Source of the DNA: Candidatus Hermodarchaeum yapensis
GTDB lineage: Archaea > Asgardarchaeota > Hermodarchaeia > Hermodarchaeales > Hermodarchaeaceae
Assembly: GCA_016840405.1 (NCBI GenBank)
Contig: JAEOSK010000011.1
Coordinates: 2,634 to 66,633, forward strand
Reading direction: 5' to 3'
Length of the DNA: 64,000 nt
The position numbers and the translations under genes are program-made. Shown here one piece after another: positions 8,247 to 47,505 of the stretch (position 1 is the stretch's first letter; each line of letters begins with the position of its first letter). Under the pieces are notes generated by a model. That model worked only from the letters and a program-made list of their open reading frames with translations. It made no database searches and was not told where the DNA came from.

Positions 8247-8530
8247 TATGTTCGCCCGCTCGCAGAGCGTTCACGAAATGACCGGAGAATTTTCTGAGCG
8301 TCGGTAGCAGGAACATAAGCTCCACCTGTGTAGGTATGACCACATTTACGACAGGTCCAGATTCCGGTTGATAAGCGACGAACCGCTTTAGTTTGACAGC
8401 TGGGACATTTATGCAACATTTTCATGTTGGCTTCAATCTTTGCTACTCGCTGTCGAAGTGTGACTCCATATCGAGCGCCAAAACGCCCTGCTCGTCCTGC
8501 TTTCTTTGTTCGACCCATGGAATTACTCAC
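8246..8530 (-). CDS. rpl37ae: Ribosomal protein L37Ae (eL43)
   Basis: '[17 protein letters not shown]' followed by the zinc ribbon 'CPSC...CRKCG'. The likely start is Met5 (8518). Confidence 0.9.
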
Positions 8531-9327
8531 CGTTGGGGAAGCTGTTTACGCATCTTTTTAACAATTTTGCTCGCGCGTTCAATGGCATCAGTAACTTCCT
8601 GATATGTGAAAGGAACCCCACCAGACTTCTGCATCGAAGAGATGGTGTCATCACCATCAATAGCAATGGAAATTCGACCGTCCATGACATTCTCTTCTTC
8701 CAAGGTGGGATCAGCAACAAGTGTCCCATCAATTTTCGCAAAGGTGACCGTAAGTGGTGGTGGACCCATTTCGAGAGGAAACGTTTCTTCCAGTACTTCA
8801 GCTGTGCCGTCCTCAGTAACATTGACCTTTGGAAGTTTAGTGTTCATCAGAGCGCCGATTGCCGCCAGGGATGCCGCATCAATGAGATTACCATGGTCTG
8901 CAAGGATATACAAGTCTAACATGACCAAGTAAACGTGCTCACCAGATTTGATACATAAGGAAGACCGTTGAATCGCACTTGAATGGCGAATTCCACGATC
9001 CACCACTCGCGCTAATTCGATGGCTTGTTCACCAGGTGGACCCAACTCAAATTCAGGAGAAGCAATGGGAAAGAGTTCAGCGGAGGTAATAACAACTCCT
9101 TCATCAGGAGTGTCAGGGAAAGGCCTTCCGACCTGGATTTTAACACCAGCAAGTACTCGACTCTTACCTAACCACGCTTCAGAAGAACCCTCAGCCTTGG
9201 AAATAACGTCTTGAGTTAATTTGGTTGGTCGAATTTCATCAAAACCTCGACCGTCAACTCGCTTTCCTTCGCGTAGTAGCGTACTGATTCGTTCTCGATC
9301 AATTTCTGCAACTATTTTCATTATCAT
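8527..9327 (-). CDS. rrp42: Exosome subunit Rrp42
   Basis: RNase PH fold from '[34 protein letters not shown]'. The ATG at 9327 abuts the rrp41 stop (TGA, 9329-9331). The first 74 codons of the ORF-track 340-aa ORF are an alternative-frame read of the rrp41 tail. Confidence 0.9.
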
Positions 9328-9328
9328 T

Positions 9329-10288
9329 TCACTCCGTCTCTTTTGGTGATTCAGTTTTCTTCTTTTTCGGCGTTTTTGTTTTCTTTGTCGTCTTTGTTTT
9401 TTCTTCGGCCTTCGCAGGGGTAGTCCGTTTGGTGCGTTTTCGTGTTGGTTTGGGCTCTTCTTCTTTGGGCTCTTCTTCTTTGGGCTTTTCTTCTTTGATT
9501 TCTTCAACTTTCTCAAGAAGTTCTGGTGAAACTTCAGCGATTTGATCACGAATCTTAGCGTATTTCTTTAAGAGAACTTCTTTTTGCATTTCGTGAATCT
9601 GGTGGATGCCTTCTTCAGCCATTTGAAGAGCAGTGGCTAATTCTTTCTTCGTGAGTTTACCATCCATCTGGAGAAGGGTAATTTCACCACGCTCGGGAGC
9701 CATTACTGTGGGAACATCTGCATCCCCAATTTTGTCTTCGATATCACTTAAATCTACAGCGATTTTCCCGTCGATTTTCCCTGCAGCGACTCCTGCAACG
9801 AGCCCTCGCATTGGAATGCCAGCATCTGCCAGGGCAAGAGCTGCCACTGTAGCACTGGCACACCGTGACCCCCCATCAGCCTCGAGGACTTGTATAAAGA
9901 CATCAATGGCAGCGCGGGGATACATTTTCAGGAATAGCATAGGTTCAAGGGCTTGGCGCAGAACCATAGAAATTTCATGCTCTCGACGACTAGGAGCGGG
10001 GCGTTTCCGGTCAGAAACAGAAAAAGTCGCCATACGATAGATGACCCGGAGCAGGGCACGATCTGATTGGGCTAAATGCCGTGGATGCAGTTCACGTGGT
10101 CCATACACCGCTGCGACGATTTTGTTCCTTCCATGTTCGATGTAAGCAGATCCATCAGCTCGGCTGAGGTTTCCCACTTCCAAGTGTATGGGACGAAGTT
10201 CATCGAGTTTTCGTCCATCCGTTCGAAGTCCCTTCCCATCAATTAGTGGTTGTTCTGCTTCAGCTTTCTTATCACTCATCTTTTTCAC
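9329..10288 (-). CDS. rrp41: Exosome catalytic subunit Rrp41 with K/E-rich C-terminal tail of about 70 aa
   Basis: 'GLRTDGRKLDELRPIHLEVG...ADGSAYIEHGRNKIVAAVYGP' is an RNase PH domain. The tail reads 'EEKPKEEEPKEEEPKPTRKRTKRTTPAKAEEKTKTTKKTKTPKKKKTE'. Confidence 0.9.
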   Translation of the reverse strand: MKKMSDKKAEAEQPLIDGKGLRTDGRKLDELRPIHLEVGNLSRADGSAYIEHGRNKIVAAVYGPRELHPRHLAQSDRALLRVIYRMATFSVSDRKRPAPSRREHEISMVLRQALEPMLFLKMYPRAAIDVFIQVLEADGGSRCASATVAALALADAGIPMRGLVAGVAAGKIDGKIAVDLSDIEDKIGDADVPTVMAPERGEITLLQMDGKLTKKELATALQMAEEGIHQIHEMQKEVLLKKYAKIRDQIAEVSPELLEKVEEIKEEKPKEEEPKEEEPKPTRKRTKRTTPAKAEEKTKTTKKTKTPKKKKTESPKETE

Positions 10289-44636: not shown

Positions 44637-44751
44637 GCCGCGGTAGCCAAGTGGTTTACGGCGCAGGCCTGGAAATTCTCGATTACTAAACGAGAACCAA
44701 TCAGCCTGTGACCCCTGGGTCGCACGGGTTCGAATCCCGTCCGCGGCGCCA
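44637..44751 (+). tRNA. tRNA-Ser (anticodon GGA) with a 28-nt canonical intron (44675-44702) and encoded CCA
   Basis: Acceptor GCCGCGG/CCGCGGC. D-loop with GG. Anticodon stem CAGGC/GCCTG, loop CT-GGA-A. Long variable arm GACC-CCTG-GGTC. T-arm ACGGG-TTCGAAT-CCCGT. The intron after position 37 forms a bulge-helix-bulge: central CTGG/CCAA, bulges AAA and TCA, inner helix TTCTCG/CGAGAA. Confidence 0.9.
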
Positions 44752-44791: not shown

Positions 44792-47467
44792 TTAGGATTT
44801 TCGTCGCCAAGCTGTCGGATATGTACCTGTAGACATAACTACTCTCGCCGTATCCGCAACTATTCCTGACTTAGCTTCTAGAACCTGTTTGGTTGCCATC
44901 AGCGCAGTCGCTAACGCGACCAATTCACCTTTTTGGGTCATGAGGGCGACGGAGTCACCCGGTTTGATATCTGCATGTAATTGTAACACTCCAATTACAG
45001 CAAGATTTGCGCCATGACAGATAGCATTAACAGCAGAATCACGTATGATGATCTGCGCAAGATGTTGAACTCCCTCTTCAAGAGGACGAATATAACGGCG
45101 AAGGAGACGGTCTTCCTTATCTTCCTGCCAAAAATGAAAAGCATCAACCAAATCATAGAGCGAGATAAAATTAGCATCTTCTTTAAAGGGTCCAGTGCGT
45201 GTGCGACGGAGTTCAGCCATATGCGCTCCACCGCCAAGAACCTCACCGATATCGTAACAATTACTTACAAAAGCAGCACCATTCAATGCAAAATTATGAA
45301 AGTGATCTACTGTGATATCATAGACATAACCAAAATCCGGAATTGTTTTCTTAATCGTTTTGATTTTTTCCAGAAAATAATTCGCCCCTATTTGTCTTTG
45401 TAATTCTATTAAGTCAGAATCGTCTTTAGGTATTAAAGCAAGTAAAGATTTTACCAATCTTGACAAAAGGCGTCTTGTTGGTCTTTGACCAGATAGGAGT
45501 CTATTAAATGCTCCTCCCCTGTATATTGAATTTAGTGATAACCCATATTTCTGAATTATATTTTTAATATGTGCTACACAGGAGAGAGGCATTAAGTCTT
45601 GAGATCCATATGAGGTGTATCGTGAAAACTGTGTATCAAATTGCTCAAGCTTTTTCATCTTTTGTGGATGTTTGCATTTCATTAATTGGGAAAAGCGAAT
45701 CTTATCAAAAGGCGATTTAAGTACTACATGATACTTCAGGACTGAATCACTCTTATCGAACGTTGGTGACAAGCTCTCATATATCTTTGAACGAATTCCA
45801 AGGCGTTTTAGTAGTAGAAATATTTGCACTGCAACATGTTTGTAAGCCGTTTCATATGCGATTTGTGTATAAGGTGAATTTGTTTTAATGCTAACTGTGC
45901 CATCGCCATCAAAATATCCCGATAAGAAACTGGAAATAAGATTTTTTGAAAGCGAAGAAAGATTTTCTAAATGCATGGTTTTCTTTGGGCTAGTAATTCC
46001 TAATTTTTTCGCTATCCCTGCAAGTACTGGGTTGTTGACCGTTACAATAACAGTCCTAGATATCTTAGTTTGAGTAATTTTGCTTGACGGGAATAACCGA
46101 TTCACAATTGAAATAAATGTTTCAATAAGTTCGATTTCTGTGTTTGTGAAAATAACTCTTGTAGGTCGAACGCATTTCTTTTCCTGCACTATACTGCCAT
46201 CAGACGCTACCAATCCTAGCAAATAGAGAAGTTCTGAATTAAGTTTTTTATCAGTGATTGCGTAATACGCACCTCTCTCTCCTTTGAAGGCTTCAGTCAA
46301 TTCGCATACTGAAAACCAATCTAACTCAGTTTCTTCACAAACCTGACGGAGATATTTAATTCGGATGCCCCTTTCTGGTTGGAGAAAGATTCGACGATCT
46401 ATTCCCAAAATTCGACAGGCTTTGGTTAGACTCCCATATGACCTTGAAAGGGATTTTTTACATTGTTTTTTCAGTTCGTTTCCAAAGCAAAGGAAATCAG
46501 AATCTAGTAACTCGATAAGATATGGAATTTTATCAGATTTTAGAATTAATTCGCGAGGACTAAAAACAAAGTTTCCTGGAACGACATCTTTTGCATCTAT
46601 CAATAATGGTCCATTGATATCGTCTATTAGTATTTCATGGTCAGGCGTAACGAAGAGGGTAATACCCGAATCGAGTTCGAGTTCAACCATCTCAGAAGGG
46701 GCAGGTAATCTTTGGATTCCGGTTATTGAAGAAGATACAACTTTGTGTTCGTTAAGACTCAAAGAGACCGTCTCTAAGGTTTTCAAATTAAATTGATTGG
46801 AATTGGTAACACCTAGGCTTGAGTCAATGATATCAGAGATTTGATGGAGTCCTCCATTTTGTAAAAAGAGGAATGAGGAAGGAGCAACACATAGTTTTCG
46901 AATATAGGTGCCCGCTTGACAGCCAACTTGAAAGAGCACGTCTTGCCCGTCGATTTCTAGTATATCTAAATAGTAAATCTGTCTTGTGCGGAGTCGTCGT
47001 TTGACGGAAGAGCGGAGGGGAGGACGTTGATAGATGGTTCCGACAAATTCTGCGGCAGCCTTTCGAATGTTATCTTTGGATTCTTGTTGATGGAGTCGCA
47101 GAATGCAAACATATTCTTTGCCAGCTTTTAGCAGAACATTGGCAATTTTCGTAGCGTTTCCTAACATGACAGGTAATACACCGGTTACCTTTGGATCCAA
47201 TGTTCCGGAATGCCCTGCGCGATTAAGGCTTAGGATTCGCTTAACCCAAGATACCACTTCATGGCTGGTGGGTCCTGGAGGTTTTTCTGGGCCTGTAAAG
47301 GGTTATTGACCCCTTCAGAACAAGCTATCCAGATTGATTATACCATTCTGAAATAATTCAGGAATGGTTCGCGTTCCAGGGACACGACCATAGGTGGGAT
47401 TTGTAGTATCTTCGGCGCGCGTTACCATTTTCCGCTGTTTGTCGGCAGGTAGCCGCGGTTTTGTCAC
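44792..47467 (-). CDS. cbf5: tRNA/rRNA pseudouridine synthase Cbf5 (TruB family, PUA domain), interrupted by a 42-nt intron-like insert and an intein
   Basis: Exon 1 (47467..47327, GTG start 9 nt after GGAGG) encodes 'TKPRLPADKQRKMVTRAEDTTNPTYGRVPGTRTIPELFQNGIINLD'. Exon 2 begins 'KPPGPTSHEVVSWVKRILSLNRAGHSGTLDP...GTYIRKL', then the intein, then 'CYDIGEVLGGGAHMAELRRTRTGPF' and the PUA region. The conceptual mature protein is 333 aa. Confidence 0.85.
45260..46891 (-). mobile_element. Intein (544 aa) with LAGLIDADG homing endonuclease domain inside cbf5
   Basis: It starts 'CVAPSSFLFL' (Cys1, TGT 46891-46889), has block B 'TPDH', two LAGLIDADG motifs 'LLYLLGLVASDGS' and 'FLSGYFDGDGT', and ends 'VYDITVDHFHNFALNGAAFVSN' followed by +1 Cys (45259-45257). 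The flanks rejoin to 'GTYIRKL-CYDIGEVLG', the conserved Cbf5 core. Confidence 0.85.
47285..47326 (-). other. Candidate bulge-helix-bulge-type pre-mRNA intron in cbf5 (42 nt)
   Basis: The in-frame insert AGCTTGTTCTGAAGGGGTCAATAACCCTTTACAGGCCCAGAA (minus strand) carries TGA and TAA between '...GIINLD' and 'KPPGPTSHEV...'. Exon CUGG pairs with intron-3' CCAG. A 3-nt bulge AUA lies at the 5' site. Inner helices are GCUUGU/ACAGGC and GAAGGG/CCCUUU. The 3' site lies in the A-run after CCAG. Confidence 0.65.
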
Positions 47468-47505
47468 GTCCGATGACCTCCTCTGCCCCTAAGGGCGAGT
47501 CGGTA

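What the first reader, a model, noticed from the sequence alone, without database searches (positions are those of the whole stretch)
47285..47326. cbf5 is split by a 42-nt in-frame, stop-containing insert with bulge-helix-bulge geometry: candidate pre-mRNA intron
The ORF-track cbf5 ORF starts at an internal GTG (47257) and lacks the Cbf5 N-terminus. Reading further up the same minus-strand frame gives '...PFTGPE-KPPGPTSHEVV', blocked by TAA (47305-47303) and TGA. Fourteen codons upstream, still in the same frame, lies 'TKPRLPADKQRKMVTRAEDTTNPTYGRVPGTRTIPELFQNGIINLD' (47467-47327), with a GTG start 9 nt after GGAGG. From my recollection of Pyrococcus Cbf5 ('...GVINLDKPPGPTSHEVV...'), INLD should be followed directly by KPxGPTSHEV.

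The intervening 42 nt fold as follows. Exon CUGG pairs with intron-3' CCAG (4 bp). A 3-nt bulge AUA follows, then 6 bp GCUUGU/ACAGGC, a UCU bulge, and 6 bp GAAGGG/CCCUUU with an 8-nt loop. The 3' boundary falls in the AAAAA run right after CCAG. Cutting after the second nucleotide of each 3-nt bulge is the same geometry as the tRNA-Ser intron 2.6 kb away. It yields CUG GAU|AAA CCU, i.e. in-frame '...INLD-KPPGP...'. I found no outer helix at the 3' site, so this is a relaxed BHB.

BHB introns in cbf5 mRNA have been reported for some Crenarchaeota (Watanabe et al. 2002 FEBS Lett; Yokobori et al. 2009, cited from memory). I cannot tell whether this lineage or insertion site is already covered.
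Basis: partly seen in the sequence, partly recalled or inferred. Interest (0 to 1): 0.8.

Follow-up and report, generated by a model that had tools for sequence, protein, structure and literature searches.

The report
Spliced mRNA intron in Asgard cbf5
The gene for the RNA-modifying enzyme Cbf5 in this Asgard (Hermodarchaeota-type) archaeon is interrupted by a 42-base intron shaped like a tRNA intron, a very rare thing in archaeal protein genes, sitting at a different place from the only coding-sequence case known so far.

Summary
cbf5 (minus strand, 44792-47467) is broken at 47285-47326 by 42 nt carrying in-frame TGA and TAA. Deleting them, plus a 544-aa intein further downstream, gives a 333-aa protein that aligns with Pyrococcus Cbf5 without a gap (E 7e-122).

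The insert folds as a relaxed bulge-helix-bulge (HBh') motif:
- a 4-bp helix, CUGG (exon 1) with CCAG (intron 3' end);
- a 3-nt bulge 3' of each strand (AU|A and AA|A);
- a 5-6 bp inner helix, and no outer helix.
Cutting after the second bulge nucleotide gives exactly ...INLD|KPPGP....

Twenty-two further distinct sequences from relatives (Hermodarchaeota-type MAGs and metagenome contigs) carry the element at the same codon boundary. Lengths are 38-43 nt. Fourteen of 23 are not multiples of three, and all nine 42-nt copies carry in-frame stops. The helices covary, including one exon-intron compensatory change. Four other Hermodarchaeota and 133 other archaeal loci are uninterrupted.

The known crenarchaeal cbf5 intron splits the catalytic Asp codon 31 codons downstream, so this is an independent insertion in a new phylum. 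I found no report of it. Splicing by the tRNA splicing endonuclease plus RtcB ligase is inferred; no transcript data were available.

The parts
47477..47481 (-). Shine-Dalgarno-like GGAGG, 9 nt upstream of the exon-1 start codon
   Evidence: Read directly from the sequence. GGAGG stands at the same distance in 14 of 15 sequences compared; L006 has GAAGAGG there.
47327..47467 (-). cbf5 exon 1: GTG start plus 46 codons, ending ...GIINLD. It encodes most of the DKCLD domain.
   Evidence: Pfam DKCLD matches residues 10-58 of the spliced product. The alignment to PDB Cbf5 is collinear. There is a coding signature across 20 sequences: differences by codon position are 1678/965/4138. The database holds this exact ORF as an orphan 50-aa protein, P0121.
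47329..47332 (-). Exonic strand of the central 4-bp helix H (CUGG = last base of the Asn codon, the Leu codon CUG and the first base of the Asp codon)
   Evidence: Pairs with CCAG at 47290-47287. Paired in 100% of 23 sequences. In L167 the Leu codon is CUA and the intron strand is CUAG, a compensatory exon-intron change.
47326..47328 (-). 5' bulge B1 (AU|A). The predicted 5' splice site lies between 47327 and 47326.
   Evidence: A 3-nt bulge appears in the MFE and RNAalifold structures. It reads AUA or ACA in all 23 sequences.
47285..47326 (-). 42-nt intron, with in-frame TGA at 47317-47315 and TAA at 47305-47303
   Evidence: It is precisely absent in 137 other archaeal cbf5 loci, including 4 Hermodarchaeota.
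47320..47325 (-). 5' strand of inner helix h' (GCUUGU)
   Evidence: Pairs with 47296-47291. The core 5 bp are paired in 96-97% of cells, and 3 of 5 pairs show compensatory double changes.
47297..47316 (-). Distal hairpin of the intron (GAAGGG / 8-nt loop / CCCUUU). It is variable in sequence and register among relatives.
   Evidence: Only 77% of cells are paired in the model-fitted alignment. It is probably not recognised by the enzyme.
47291..47296 (-). 3' strand of inner helix h' (ACAGGC)
47287..47290 (-). Intronic strand of the central helix H (CCAG)
   Evidence: The variants CCGG and CUAG in relatives keep pairing with the exon strand.
47284..47286 (-). 3' bulge-equivalent B2 (AA|A). The predicted 3' splice site lies between 47285 and 47284. 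It is not closed by an outer helix, hence HBh'.
   Evidence: RNAalifold predicts no exon1-exon2 helix. The one possible adjoining pair (U 47333 with A 47283) is lost where the Asn codon is AAC. In the unconstrained MFE fold, U 47333 instead pairs with A 47286.
46892..47284 (-). cbf5 exon 2, first part (N-extein): KPPGPTSHEVV ... GTYIRKL. It includes the catalytic motif HSGTLDP.
45260..46891 (-). 544-aa LAGLIDADG intein inside cbf5 (CVAPSS ... AAFVSN, followed by +1 Cys)
   Evidence: Pfam Intein_splicing, LAGLIDADG_3 and Hom_end. Coordinates. Without it the extein aligns to PDB Cbf5 with no gap.
44792..45259 (-). cbf5 exon 2, last part (C-extein): CYDIGEV ... TruB_C_2 and PUA domains, plus the stop codon

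Best explanation
The 42 nt at 47285-47326 are an archaeal endonuclease-type (bulge-helix-bulge) intron in the coding sequence of the cbf5 pre-mRNA.

How the motif forms. In the transcript, the last bases of exon 1 (CUGG) pair with the last paired bases of the intron (CCAG) to form the 4-bp central helix. A 3-nt bulge follows each strand on its 3' side. A 5-6 bp inner helix (GCUUGU/ACAGGC) closes the 5' bulge. No outer helix closes the 3' bulge. This is the relaxed HBh' form of the motif.

How it is removed. The tRNA splicing endonuclease cuts after the second nucleotide of each bulge (GGAU|A and GAA|A). An RtcB-type ligase joins the exons to ...CUG GAU AAA CCU..., restoring ...INLD-KPPGP.... 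Asgard archaea are reported to have the broad-specificity (alpha-beta)2 endonuclease with the L1 loop.

In this genome the translated product must then also excise a 544-aa intein to give a 333-aa Cbf5.

Shown here: the interruption, its exact limits, the conserved and covarying HBh' structure, and the need for removal at RNA level. Inferred: the enzymes involved, and that splicing happens in vivo.
For: 1. Deleting exactly these 42 nt restores a Cbf5 that aligns with no gap to Pyrococcus Cbf5 (E 7e-122). The DKCLD domain spans the junction.

2. The limits derived from the protein alignment coincide with the cut positions predicted independently from BHB geometry: a 4-bp H, 3-nt bulges, and a cut after the second bulge nucleotide.

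3. Twenty-three distinct sequences have the element at the same codon boundary. Lengths are 38 (1), 40 (4), 41 (8), 42 (9) and 43 (1) nt. Fourteen are not multiples of three, and all nine 42-nt copies have in-frame stops.

4. H is paired in 100% of cells and h' in 96-97%. Three h' pairs show compensatory changes. One exon-intron compensatory change occurs in H (CUG>CUA with CCAG>CUAG in L167). Sliding the partner strand drops pairing to 11-64%. RNAalifold finds the same helices without any constraint. Fourteen of 15 unconstrained MFE folds agree.

5. Both exons are under purifying selection (exon-2 identities of 68-95%). The gene sits in the conserved secY-adk-cmk-L14e-cbf5-S13 cluster.

6. 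In 12 of 15 sequences no start codon precedes KPPGPTSHE in the exon-2 frame after the last stop.

7. Four Hermodarchaeota loci and 133 other archaeal loci have an uninterrupted INLDKPPGP.

8. A precedent exists. Crenarchaeal cbf5 introns with relaxed BHB motifs are spliced in vivo and cut in vitro by the hetero-oligomeric endonuclease (PMC2738675). Asgard archaea are reported to have that enzyme type with the L1 loop (PMC5829648).

9. A tRNA-Ser(GGA) gene 2.5 kb away carries a BHB intron with the same cut geometry.
Against: - There is no transcript, cDNA or peptide evidence. The protein database holds no fused INLDKPPGP protein from this clade; every hit above 71% identity stops at the intron.
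- The 3' site is not in a closed bulge, because there is no outer helix. Cleavage therefore depends on a broad-specificity enzyme, and I could not examine that enzyme in this genome. No endA gene was found among the 21 window ORFs I scanned.
- In sequences with an AAU Asn codon, including the window, a U-A pair can extend H to 5 bp in the MFE fold. That fold would bury the first nucleotide of the 3' bulge.
- Archaeal transcription and translation are coupled, so ribosomes would meet the intron's stop codons unless splicing is fast.
Confidence: 0.85

Rival explanations
1. Split gene. Exon 1 (a 50-aa DKCLD peptide that terminates in the insert) and a truncated Cbf5 are translated separately and associate non-covalently. 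No RNA splicing occurs.
For: Gene callers annotate exactly this. Orphan 49-59 aa DKCLD ORFs and 277-281 aa Cbf5 proteins are in public databases. Exon 1 has its own SD and start codon.
Against: - The invariant KPPGPTSHE motif has no start codon in frame after the last stop in 12 of 15 sequences. The first available start (GTG 47257) would discard it.
- No SD precedes exon 2.
- This model leaves unexplained a conserved, covarying 4-bp helix plus 3-nt bulge plus inner helix whose geometry predicts the exact reading-frame junction.
Confidence: 0.05
2. Translational recoding. Ribosomes bypass or frameshift across the insert, as in the 50-nt hop of phage T4 gene 60, with the hairpin acting as the stimulator.
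For: A stable hairpin starts right after the last exon-1 codon. A stop codon follows within 2-3 codons of the exon-1 end in 15 of 23 sequences. This superficially resembles a take-off site.
Against: - The take-off codon (GAU/GAC) and the codon before the landing site (GAA/GAG) do not match, so peptidyl-tRNA re-pairing is not possible.
- A single frameshift cannot serve inserts of 38, 40, 41, 42 and 43 nt. It would also leave 13-14 extra residues in a motif that has no insertion in 137 homologues.
- The conserved features are those of an endonuclease substrate: an exact 4-bp helix, 3-nt bulges and exon-intron covariation.
Confidence: 0.03
3. The insert is removed at RNA level, but by another activity than the tRNA splicing endonuclease: a different nuclease/ligase pair, or self-cleavage.
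For: The 3' site lacks a closed bulge. The enzyme of this lineage was not examined.
Against: - At 38-43 nt the element is far too short for a group I or group II intron.
- The only conserved features are those recognised by EndA.
- HBh' substrates are known to be cut by (alpha-beta)2 enzymes (PMC5829648).
Confidence: 0.05
4. Pseudogene or assembly artefact.
For: In-frame stops lie inside an essential gene in a metagenome-derived sequence.
Against: - The element is present in 23 distinct sequences from independent assemblies and projects.
- Both exons show strong purifying selection.
- It was the only cbf5 found in the window, and it sits in its conserved operon position.
Confidence: 0.01

Closest known systems
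cbf5 pre-mRNA intron of Crenarchaeota (Aeropyrum, Sulfolobus, Desulfurococcales; Watanabe 2002, Yoshinari 2006, Yokobori 2009 = PMC2738675)
   Same: It is in the same gene. It is short (16-44 nt there, 38-43 nt here). The exon-intron borders form a relaxed BHB, with cuts between the second and third bulge nucleotides. It interrupts a highly conserved motif, so it must be removed. Presence and absence are patchy within the clade. The host lineage has a hetero-oligomeric endonuclease.
   Different: - Site: the crenarchaeal intron splits the catalytic Asp codon (GTL-D|P). Database exon-1 ORFs ending ...HGGTLE confirm this directly. The intron here lies 31 codons upstream, at INLD|KPPGP.
- Lineage: Asgard (Hermodarchaeota-type), not TACK.
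- Similarity: the covariance model of this intron gives no hit at the Asp site of loci that carry that intron.
The two are therefore independent insertions.
BHB intron in the 5' UTR of Haloferax volcanii HVO_1309 (PMC7714728)
   Same: It is an endonuclease-excised intron of about 46 nt in an mRNA, found outside tRNA and rRNA.
   Different: It lies in the untranslated leader, has a canonical BHB, is cut by a homodimeric enzyme and does not interrupt a reading frame.
Non-canonical (HBh') tRNA introns of Crenarchaeota and other archaea, and the tRNA-Ser(GGA) intron in this window (44675-44702)
   Same: The motif grammar is identical: a 4-bp helix, 3-nt bulges 3' of each strand and an inner helix. 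The tRNA-Ser even shares the exonic strand CUGG followed by A.
   Different: The tRNA intron has the outer helix (the anticodon stem) and sits at 37/38 of a structured RNA. The cbf5 intron lies in an mRNA, has no outer helix and must compete with translation.

Membership tests
Archaeal endonuclease-type (BHB) intron | Central helix of exactly 4 bp formed by the 5' exon end and the intron 3' end | tested here: met
   CUGG/CCAG. It is paired in 100% of cells in 23 sequences, with one exon-intron compensatory change.
Archaeal endonuclease-type (BHB) intron | A 3-nt bulge 3' of each strand of the central helix; cuts after the second bulge nucleotide give the functional junction | tested here: met
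   The bulges AU|A and AA|A give CUG GAU AAA CCU = ...LD-KP..., which is identical to the junction required by the protein alignment.
Archaeal endonuclease-type (BHB) intron | Inner helix h' closing the 5' bulge | tested here: met
   It is 5-6 bp and 96-97% paired. Three pairs show compensatory changes.
Archaeal endonuclease-type (BHB) intron | Outer exon-exon helix h closing the 3' bulge (canonical hBHBh') | tested here: not met
   No conserved pairing exists between exon 1 upstream of CUGG and exon 2. The motif is therefore the relaxed HBh' class, which is a recognised variant (PMC5829648).
Archaeal endonuclease-type (BHB) intron | The host encodes a splicing endonuclease able to cut relaxed motifs ((alpha-beta)2 or epsilon2 type with a specificity loop) | not tested
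   No endA was found among the 21 window ORFs scanned, and the rest of the genome is not at hand. The literature says Asgard archaea have (alpha-beta)2 EndA with the L1 loop (PMC5829648).
Archaeal endonuclease-type (BHB) intron | Excision and exon ligation observed in RNA | not testable with these tools
   No transcriptome was available. No fused protein from this clade is in the protein database.
Crenarchaeal cbf5 intron (Watanabe/Yokobori) | Inserted in the codon of the catalytic Asp of Cbf5 | tested here: not met
   The intron here lies between Asp47 and Lys48 of the product, 31 codons upstream of the catalytic Asp in HSGTLDP.
Crenarchaeal cbf5 intron (Watanabe/Yokobori) | Common descent with the Desulfurococcales/Sulfolobales intron (sequence conservation beyond the pairing, TACK host) | tested here: not met
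   The host clade is Hermodarchaeota-type Asgard. Model R1 does not match the Asp-site inserts in Bathyarchaeia loci. Crenarchaeal intron sequences themselves were not available for comparison.

The most novel reading that the evidence does not exclude
cbf5 has been colonised independently at least twice by endonuclease-type introns: at the catalytic Asp codon in TACK lineages, and at INLD|KPPGP in Hermodarchaeota. These are the only coding-sequence BHB introns known. Such recurrence would then not be chance. It would reflect a selected regulatory link, in which production of the H/ACA pseudouridine synthase is gated by the activity of the tRNA splicing machinery (EndA/RtcB). It would also show that non-spliceosomal mRNA splicing operates in the archaeal lineage closest to eukaryotes.
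Probability: 0.2. Interest if true: 0.8.

Novelty: new member of a known kind. Interest (0 to 1): 0.66.

Why it matters
Introns that interrupt archaeal protein-coding sequences and are removed by the tRNA splicing machinery are extremely rare. Papers from 2020 and 2023 list only the crenarchaeal cbf5 intron, plus one 5'-UTR case in Haloferax.

A second intron in the same gene, at a different site and in Asgard archaea, has four consequences.
1. It extends mRNA splicing of this type to the closest archaeal relatives of eukaryotes.
2. It raises the question of why cbf5 is hit repeatedly.
3. It offers a natural gain/loss series (intron-bearing and intron-less Hermodarchaeota) for studying how such introns arise and disappear.
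4. It exposes a systematic annotation error. Public records split this gene into an orphan 50-aa 'hypothetical protein' and a Cbf5 that lacks its N-terminal domain and motif I.

Tried and rejected
In pre-tRNA, the anticodon stem runs into H, the 5' bulge lies after H, and the A-I pair lies 3 nt before the 3' site.
- ARAGORN found no tRNA in the window. Rfam found the intron-containing tRNA-Ser.
- I looked for an outer exon-exon helix by eye and with RNAalifold. There is none.
- I looked for C/D-box or H/ACA-like features in the intron. The CUGA and ACA seen in the window copy are not conserved in relatives.
- I looked for further copies of the element with covariance model R1. There are none in the window, and none away from the cbf5 site in the first 100 fetched loci.
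- I ran a crude scan of the window for H+B+h' motifs whose excision joins two open frames. It recovered the cbf5 intron and 43 other hits. Those I inspected lie at ordinary gene boundaries or overlapping ORFs (for example Rrp41/Rrp42). None was convincing, and the scan was not exhaustive.
- I searched the protein database for a spliced (fused) product from this clade as a proxy for cDNA. None was found.
- NJ bootstrapping could not decide between a single gain and a gain followed by precise loss. Intron-bearing monophyly has 37.5% support; nesting of the intron-less group has 61.5%.
- A first bootstrap script timed out.
- Cluster look-up gave no taxon names for the Asp-site exon-1 ORFs.
- Literature searches for Asgard+cbf5+intron, Hermodarchaeota+intron, 'cbf5 intron' and intein+cbf5 found no report of this intron. 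The library lacks many subscription journals.
Full report
**1. What is in the sequence**

On the minus strand, the mechanical ORF for cbf5 runs 47257-44792 and begins at an internal GTG. Read upstream in the same frame, the conserved motif KPPGPTSHEVV is present but is preceded by TAA (47305-47303) and TGA (47317-47315). Fourteen codons further up, a 47-codon ORF ends in ...PELFQNGIINLD. This ORF starts at GTG 47467, 9 nt after GGAGG at 47481-47477.

Joining 47327 to 47284, and also removing an intein (section 6), gives a 333-aa protein.
- Pfam places DKCLD at residues 10-58, which is across the junction, followed by TruB_N, TruB_C_2 and PUA.
- phmmer against the PDB aligns the protein collinearly with Pyrococcus Cbf5 (2aus_C, E 7e-122). 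The local match is GIINLDKPPGPTSHEVV against GVINLDKPPGPTSHEVV, with no gap.

The 42 nt at 47326-47285 are therefore an exact interruption of the reading frame.

**2. Structure**

In BHB terms:
- The central helix H is CUGG (47332-47329, exon 1) with CCAG (47290-47287, intron 3' end). It is exactly 4 bp.
- Each strand is followed on its 3' side by three unpaired bases: AUA (47328-47326) and AAA (47286-47284).
- The inner helix h' is GCUUGU with ACAGGC.
- A variable distal hairpin follows.

This is the correct chirality of the motif. In pre-tRNA, the anticodon stem runs into H, and the 5' bulge follows H on the exon strand. The 3' bulge follows H on the intron strand. The tRNA-Ser(GGA) gene at 44637-44748 shows it in this same genome. 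Its parts are h = CAGGC/GCCUG, H = CUGG/CCAA, bulges AA|A and UC|A, and h' = UUCUCG/CGAGAA.

Cutting after the second bulge nucleotide gives GGAU|A and GAA|A. The product, CUG GAU AAA CCU, is exactly the junction demanded by the protein alignment.

No exon1-exon2 helix closes the 3' bulge, so the motif is the relaxed HBh' class.

**3. Comparative evidence**

A scan of species-representative genomes placed the gene in Hermodarchaeota-type Asgard MAGs (taxonomy). Genome, metagenome and contig look-ups together gave 23 distinct sequences, counting the window. All carry an insert at the identical codon boundary.

*Length and frame.* Lengths are 38 (1), 40 (4), 41 (8), 42 (9) and 43 (1) nt. In 14 of 23 sequences the exons are therefore in different frames. 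All nine 42-nt copies carry in-frame stops.

*Loci without the insert.* Four other Hermodarchaeota (L010, L011, L013, L014) and 133 further archaeal loci have an uninterrupted INLDKPPGP.

*Pairing and covariation.*
- On an unbiased MAFFT alignment of 15 sequences, H plus h' are 97.8% paired. Three pairs have compensatory changes. Sliding the partner strand drops pairing to 11-54%.
- RNAalifold predicts the same two helices and the 3-nt bulge on its own.
- Fourteen of 15 unconstrained MFE folds agree.
- On the model-fitted alignment of 23 sequences, H is 100% paired. This alignment leans towards the structure.
- The most telling case is L167. There the Leu codon is CUA instead of CUG, and the intron strand is CUAG instead of CCAG.

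*Other observations.*
- Exon 1 evolves as coding sequence: differences by codon position are 1678/965/4138.
- In 12 of 15 sequences there is no start codon from which KPPGPTSHE could be translated separately.
- The element is single-copy in the window.

**4. Mechanism**

*Shown.* The interruption exists. It needs removal before or during decoding. It carries a conserved, covarying HBh' motif whose canonical cut sites match the reading-frame junction.

*Inferred.* Cleavage is by the splicing endonuclease, ligation is by RtcB, and the intron is probably circularised.
- The inference rests on the crenarchaeal precedent. There, relaxed BHB motifs in cbf5 pre-mRNA are spliced in vivo and cut by the hetero-oligomeric enzyme (PMC2738675).
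- It also rests on the report that Asgard archaea encode the (alpha-beta)2 enzyme with the L1 loop, which confers broad specificity (PMC5829648).

I could not examine endA in this genome, and no transcript evidence exists in the data I could reach.

*Rivals.* Separate translation of two polypeptides, ribosomal bypass or frameshifting, another RNA-level activity, and a pseudogene or artefact are each contradicted by specific features. These are set out under the rival explanations.

**5. Comparison with what is known**

The published cbf5 intron is confined to Desulfurococcales and Sulfolobales. [quoted passage not shown]

I could see that site directly. Database ORFs of 76-104 aa run through INLDKPPGP and stop at ...HGGTLE. 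They include entries named Ignisphaera and Sulfolobales. In addition, 21 fetched loci have 18-30 nt inserts there.

The Hermodarchaeota intron lies 31 codons upstream. It does not resemble the Asp-site inserts present among the first 100 fetched loci. Its host belongs to a different archaeal kingdom in the current NCBI taxonomy (Promethearchaeati).

It is therefore an independent insertion that works like the known intron but does not descend from it.

The 2020 and 2023 papers list cbf5 in Crenarchaeota as the only BHB intron in an archaeal mRNA apart from the HVO_1309 5'-UTR intron. Searches for Asgard+cbf5+intron and for 'cbf5 intron' found no report of this one. The library is incomplete, so prior mention elsewhere cannot be excluded.

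**6. The intein**

The same gene carries a 544-aa LAGLIDADG intein at 46891-45260. It sits between GTYIRKL and CYDIGEV.
- It is absent from the closest relatives fetched (L001, L002 and L081, 93-95% identical exteins).
- It is present in other relatives that also have the intron: P0221-P0228, which are 818-824 aa and lack DKCLD.
- About 40 database clusters from diverse archaea have an intein at this position.

In this genome, making Cbf5 therefore needs both RNA splicing and protein splicing.

**7. Verdict**

It is a new member of a known kind: an endonuclease-type intron in an archaeal coding sequence. It has a new site and a new phylum, and it is backed by strong comparative evidence but no experimental evidence.

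Noticed in passing
window 45260-46891 (-): A 544-aa LAGLIDADG intein lies inside cbf5, between GTYIRKL and CYDIGEV. It ends in Ser-Asn rather than His-Asn and is followed by a +1 Cys. It is absent from the 93-95% identical relatives L001, L002 and L081. It is present together with the intron in P0221-P0228. About 40 database clusters of Cbf5 from diverse archaea (Nanoarchaeota, Woesearchaeota and Thermoproteota by source names) carry an intein at this site. A literature search for intein+cbf5 found no paper whose title or abstract start suggests a Cbf5 intein; the four hits were not opened.
   Followed up: partly
L039, L043, L056, L062, L063, L066, L067, L072, L076, L077, L080 (Bathyarchaeia MAGs); L090, L099, L119, L121, L123, L140, L149, L156, L158, L159 (metagenome contigs): about 93 nt after the KPPGP codons: These loci have 18, 21, 24 or 30-nt inserts at the catalytic Asp codon of cbf5 (GTL-G|...|AU-PKV). 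All are multiples of three and most visibly contain stop codons. By eye they fold as HBh': for example, in L039, H = CCCU/GGGG, bulges UG|A and AA|A, h' = GGCU/AGCC. The classical cbf5 intron site therefore seems to extend to Bathyarchaeia, beyond the Desulfurococcales and Sulfolobales of the 2009 paper.
   Followed up: partly
L003, L004, L005, L007, L009, L012, L084: codon aligned with window 47467-47465: In seven relatives the codon at the conserved cbf5 start position is CTG. In the others it is GTG, ATG or TTG. In all seven it is still preceded by GGAGG 9 nt upstream (L006, which has ATG, has GAAGAGG at that position). In at least L004 no ATG, GTG or TTG lies in frame between the upstream stop and the Leu of LFQ. 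This suggests CUG initiation or another unusual start.
   Followed up: no
window 44637-44748 (+), intron about 44675-44702: A tRNA-Ser(GGA) gene carries a roughly 28-nt BHB intron at 37/38. ARAGORN missed the gene. Its exonic central-helix strand plus first bulge base (CUGGA) is identical to that of the cbf5 site (CUGGA). This might hint at how the cbf5 site was recruited, but the introns themselves show no obvious similarity.
   Followed up: partly
public protein records P0001, P0002, P0006, P0121, P0126 (MFX0078866.1), P0134 and others: Public annotations split this gene into two parts. One is an orphan 49-59 aa 'hypothetical protein' (exon 1 plus a few intron codons). The other is a Cbf5 of 277-310 aa that starts at an internal codon or reads into the intron. 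No record carries the joined product.
   Followed up: yes
L001 (JBHLQC010000071.1): The closest genome record (95% identical Cbf5, same intron) is titled 'Candidatus Odinarchaeota archaeon'. An Odinarchaeota-titled locus (L021) is only 63% identical and lacks the intron. The label looks imprecise, and the clade groups with Hermodarchaeota-labelled MAGs.
   Followed up: partly
window about 9300-10285 (-) and 8527-9549 (-): These look like an Rrp41-like and an Rrp42-like exosome subunit, judged by eye from the translations with no family search. The Rrp41-like ORF has a long Lys/Glu/Pro-rich C-terminal tail. Its reading frame overlaps the start of the downstream Rrp42-like ORF by about 200 nt, if the first start codon of the latter is used.
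   Followed up: no
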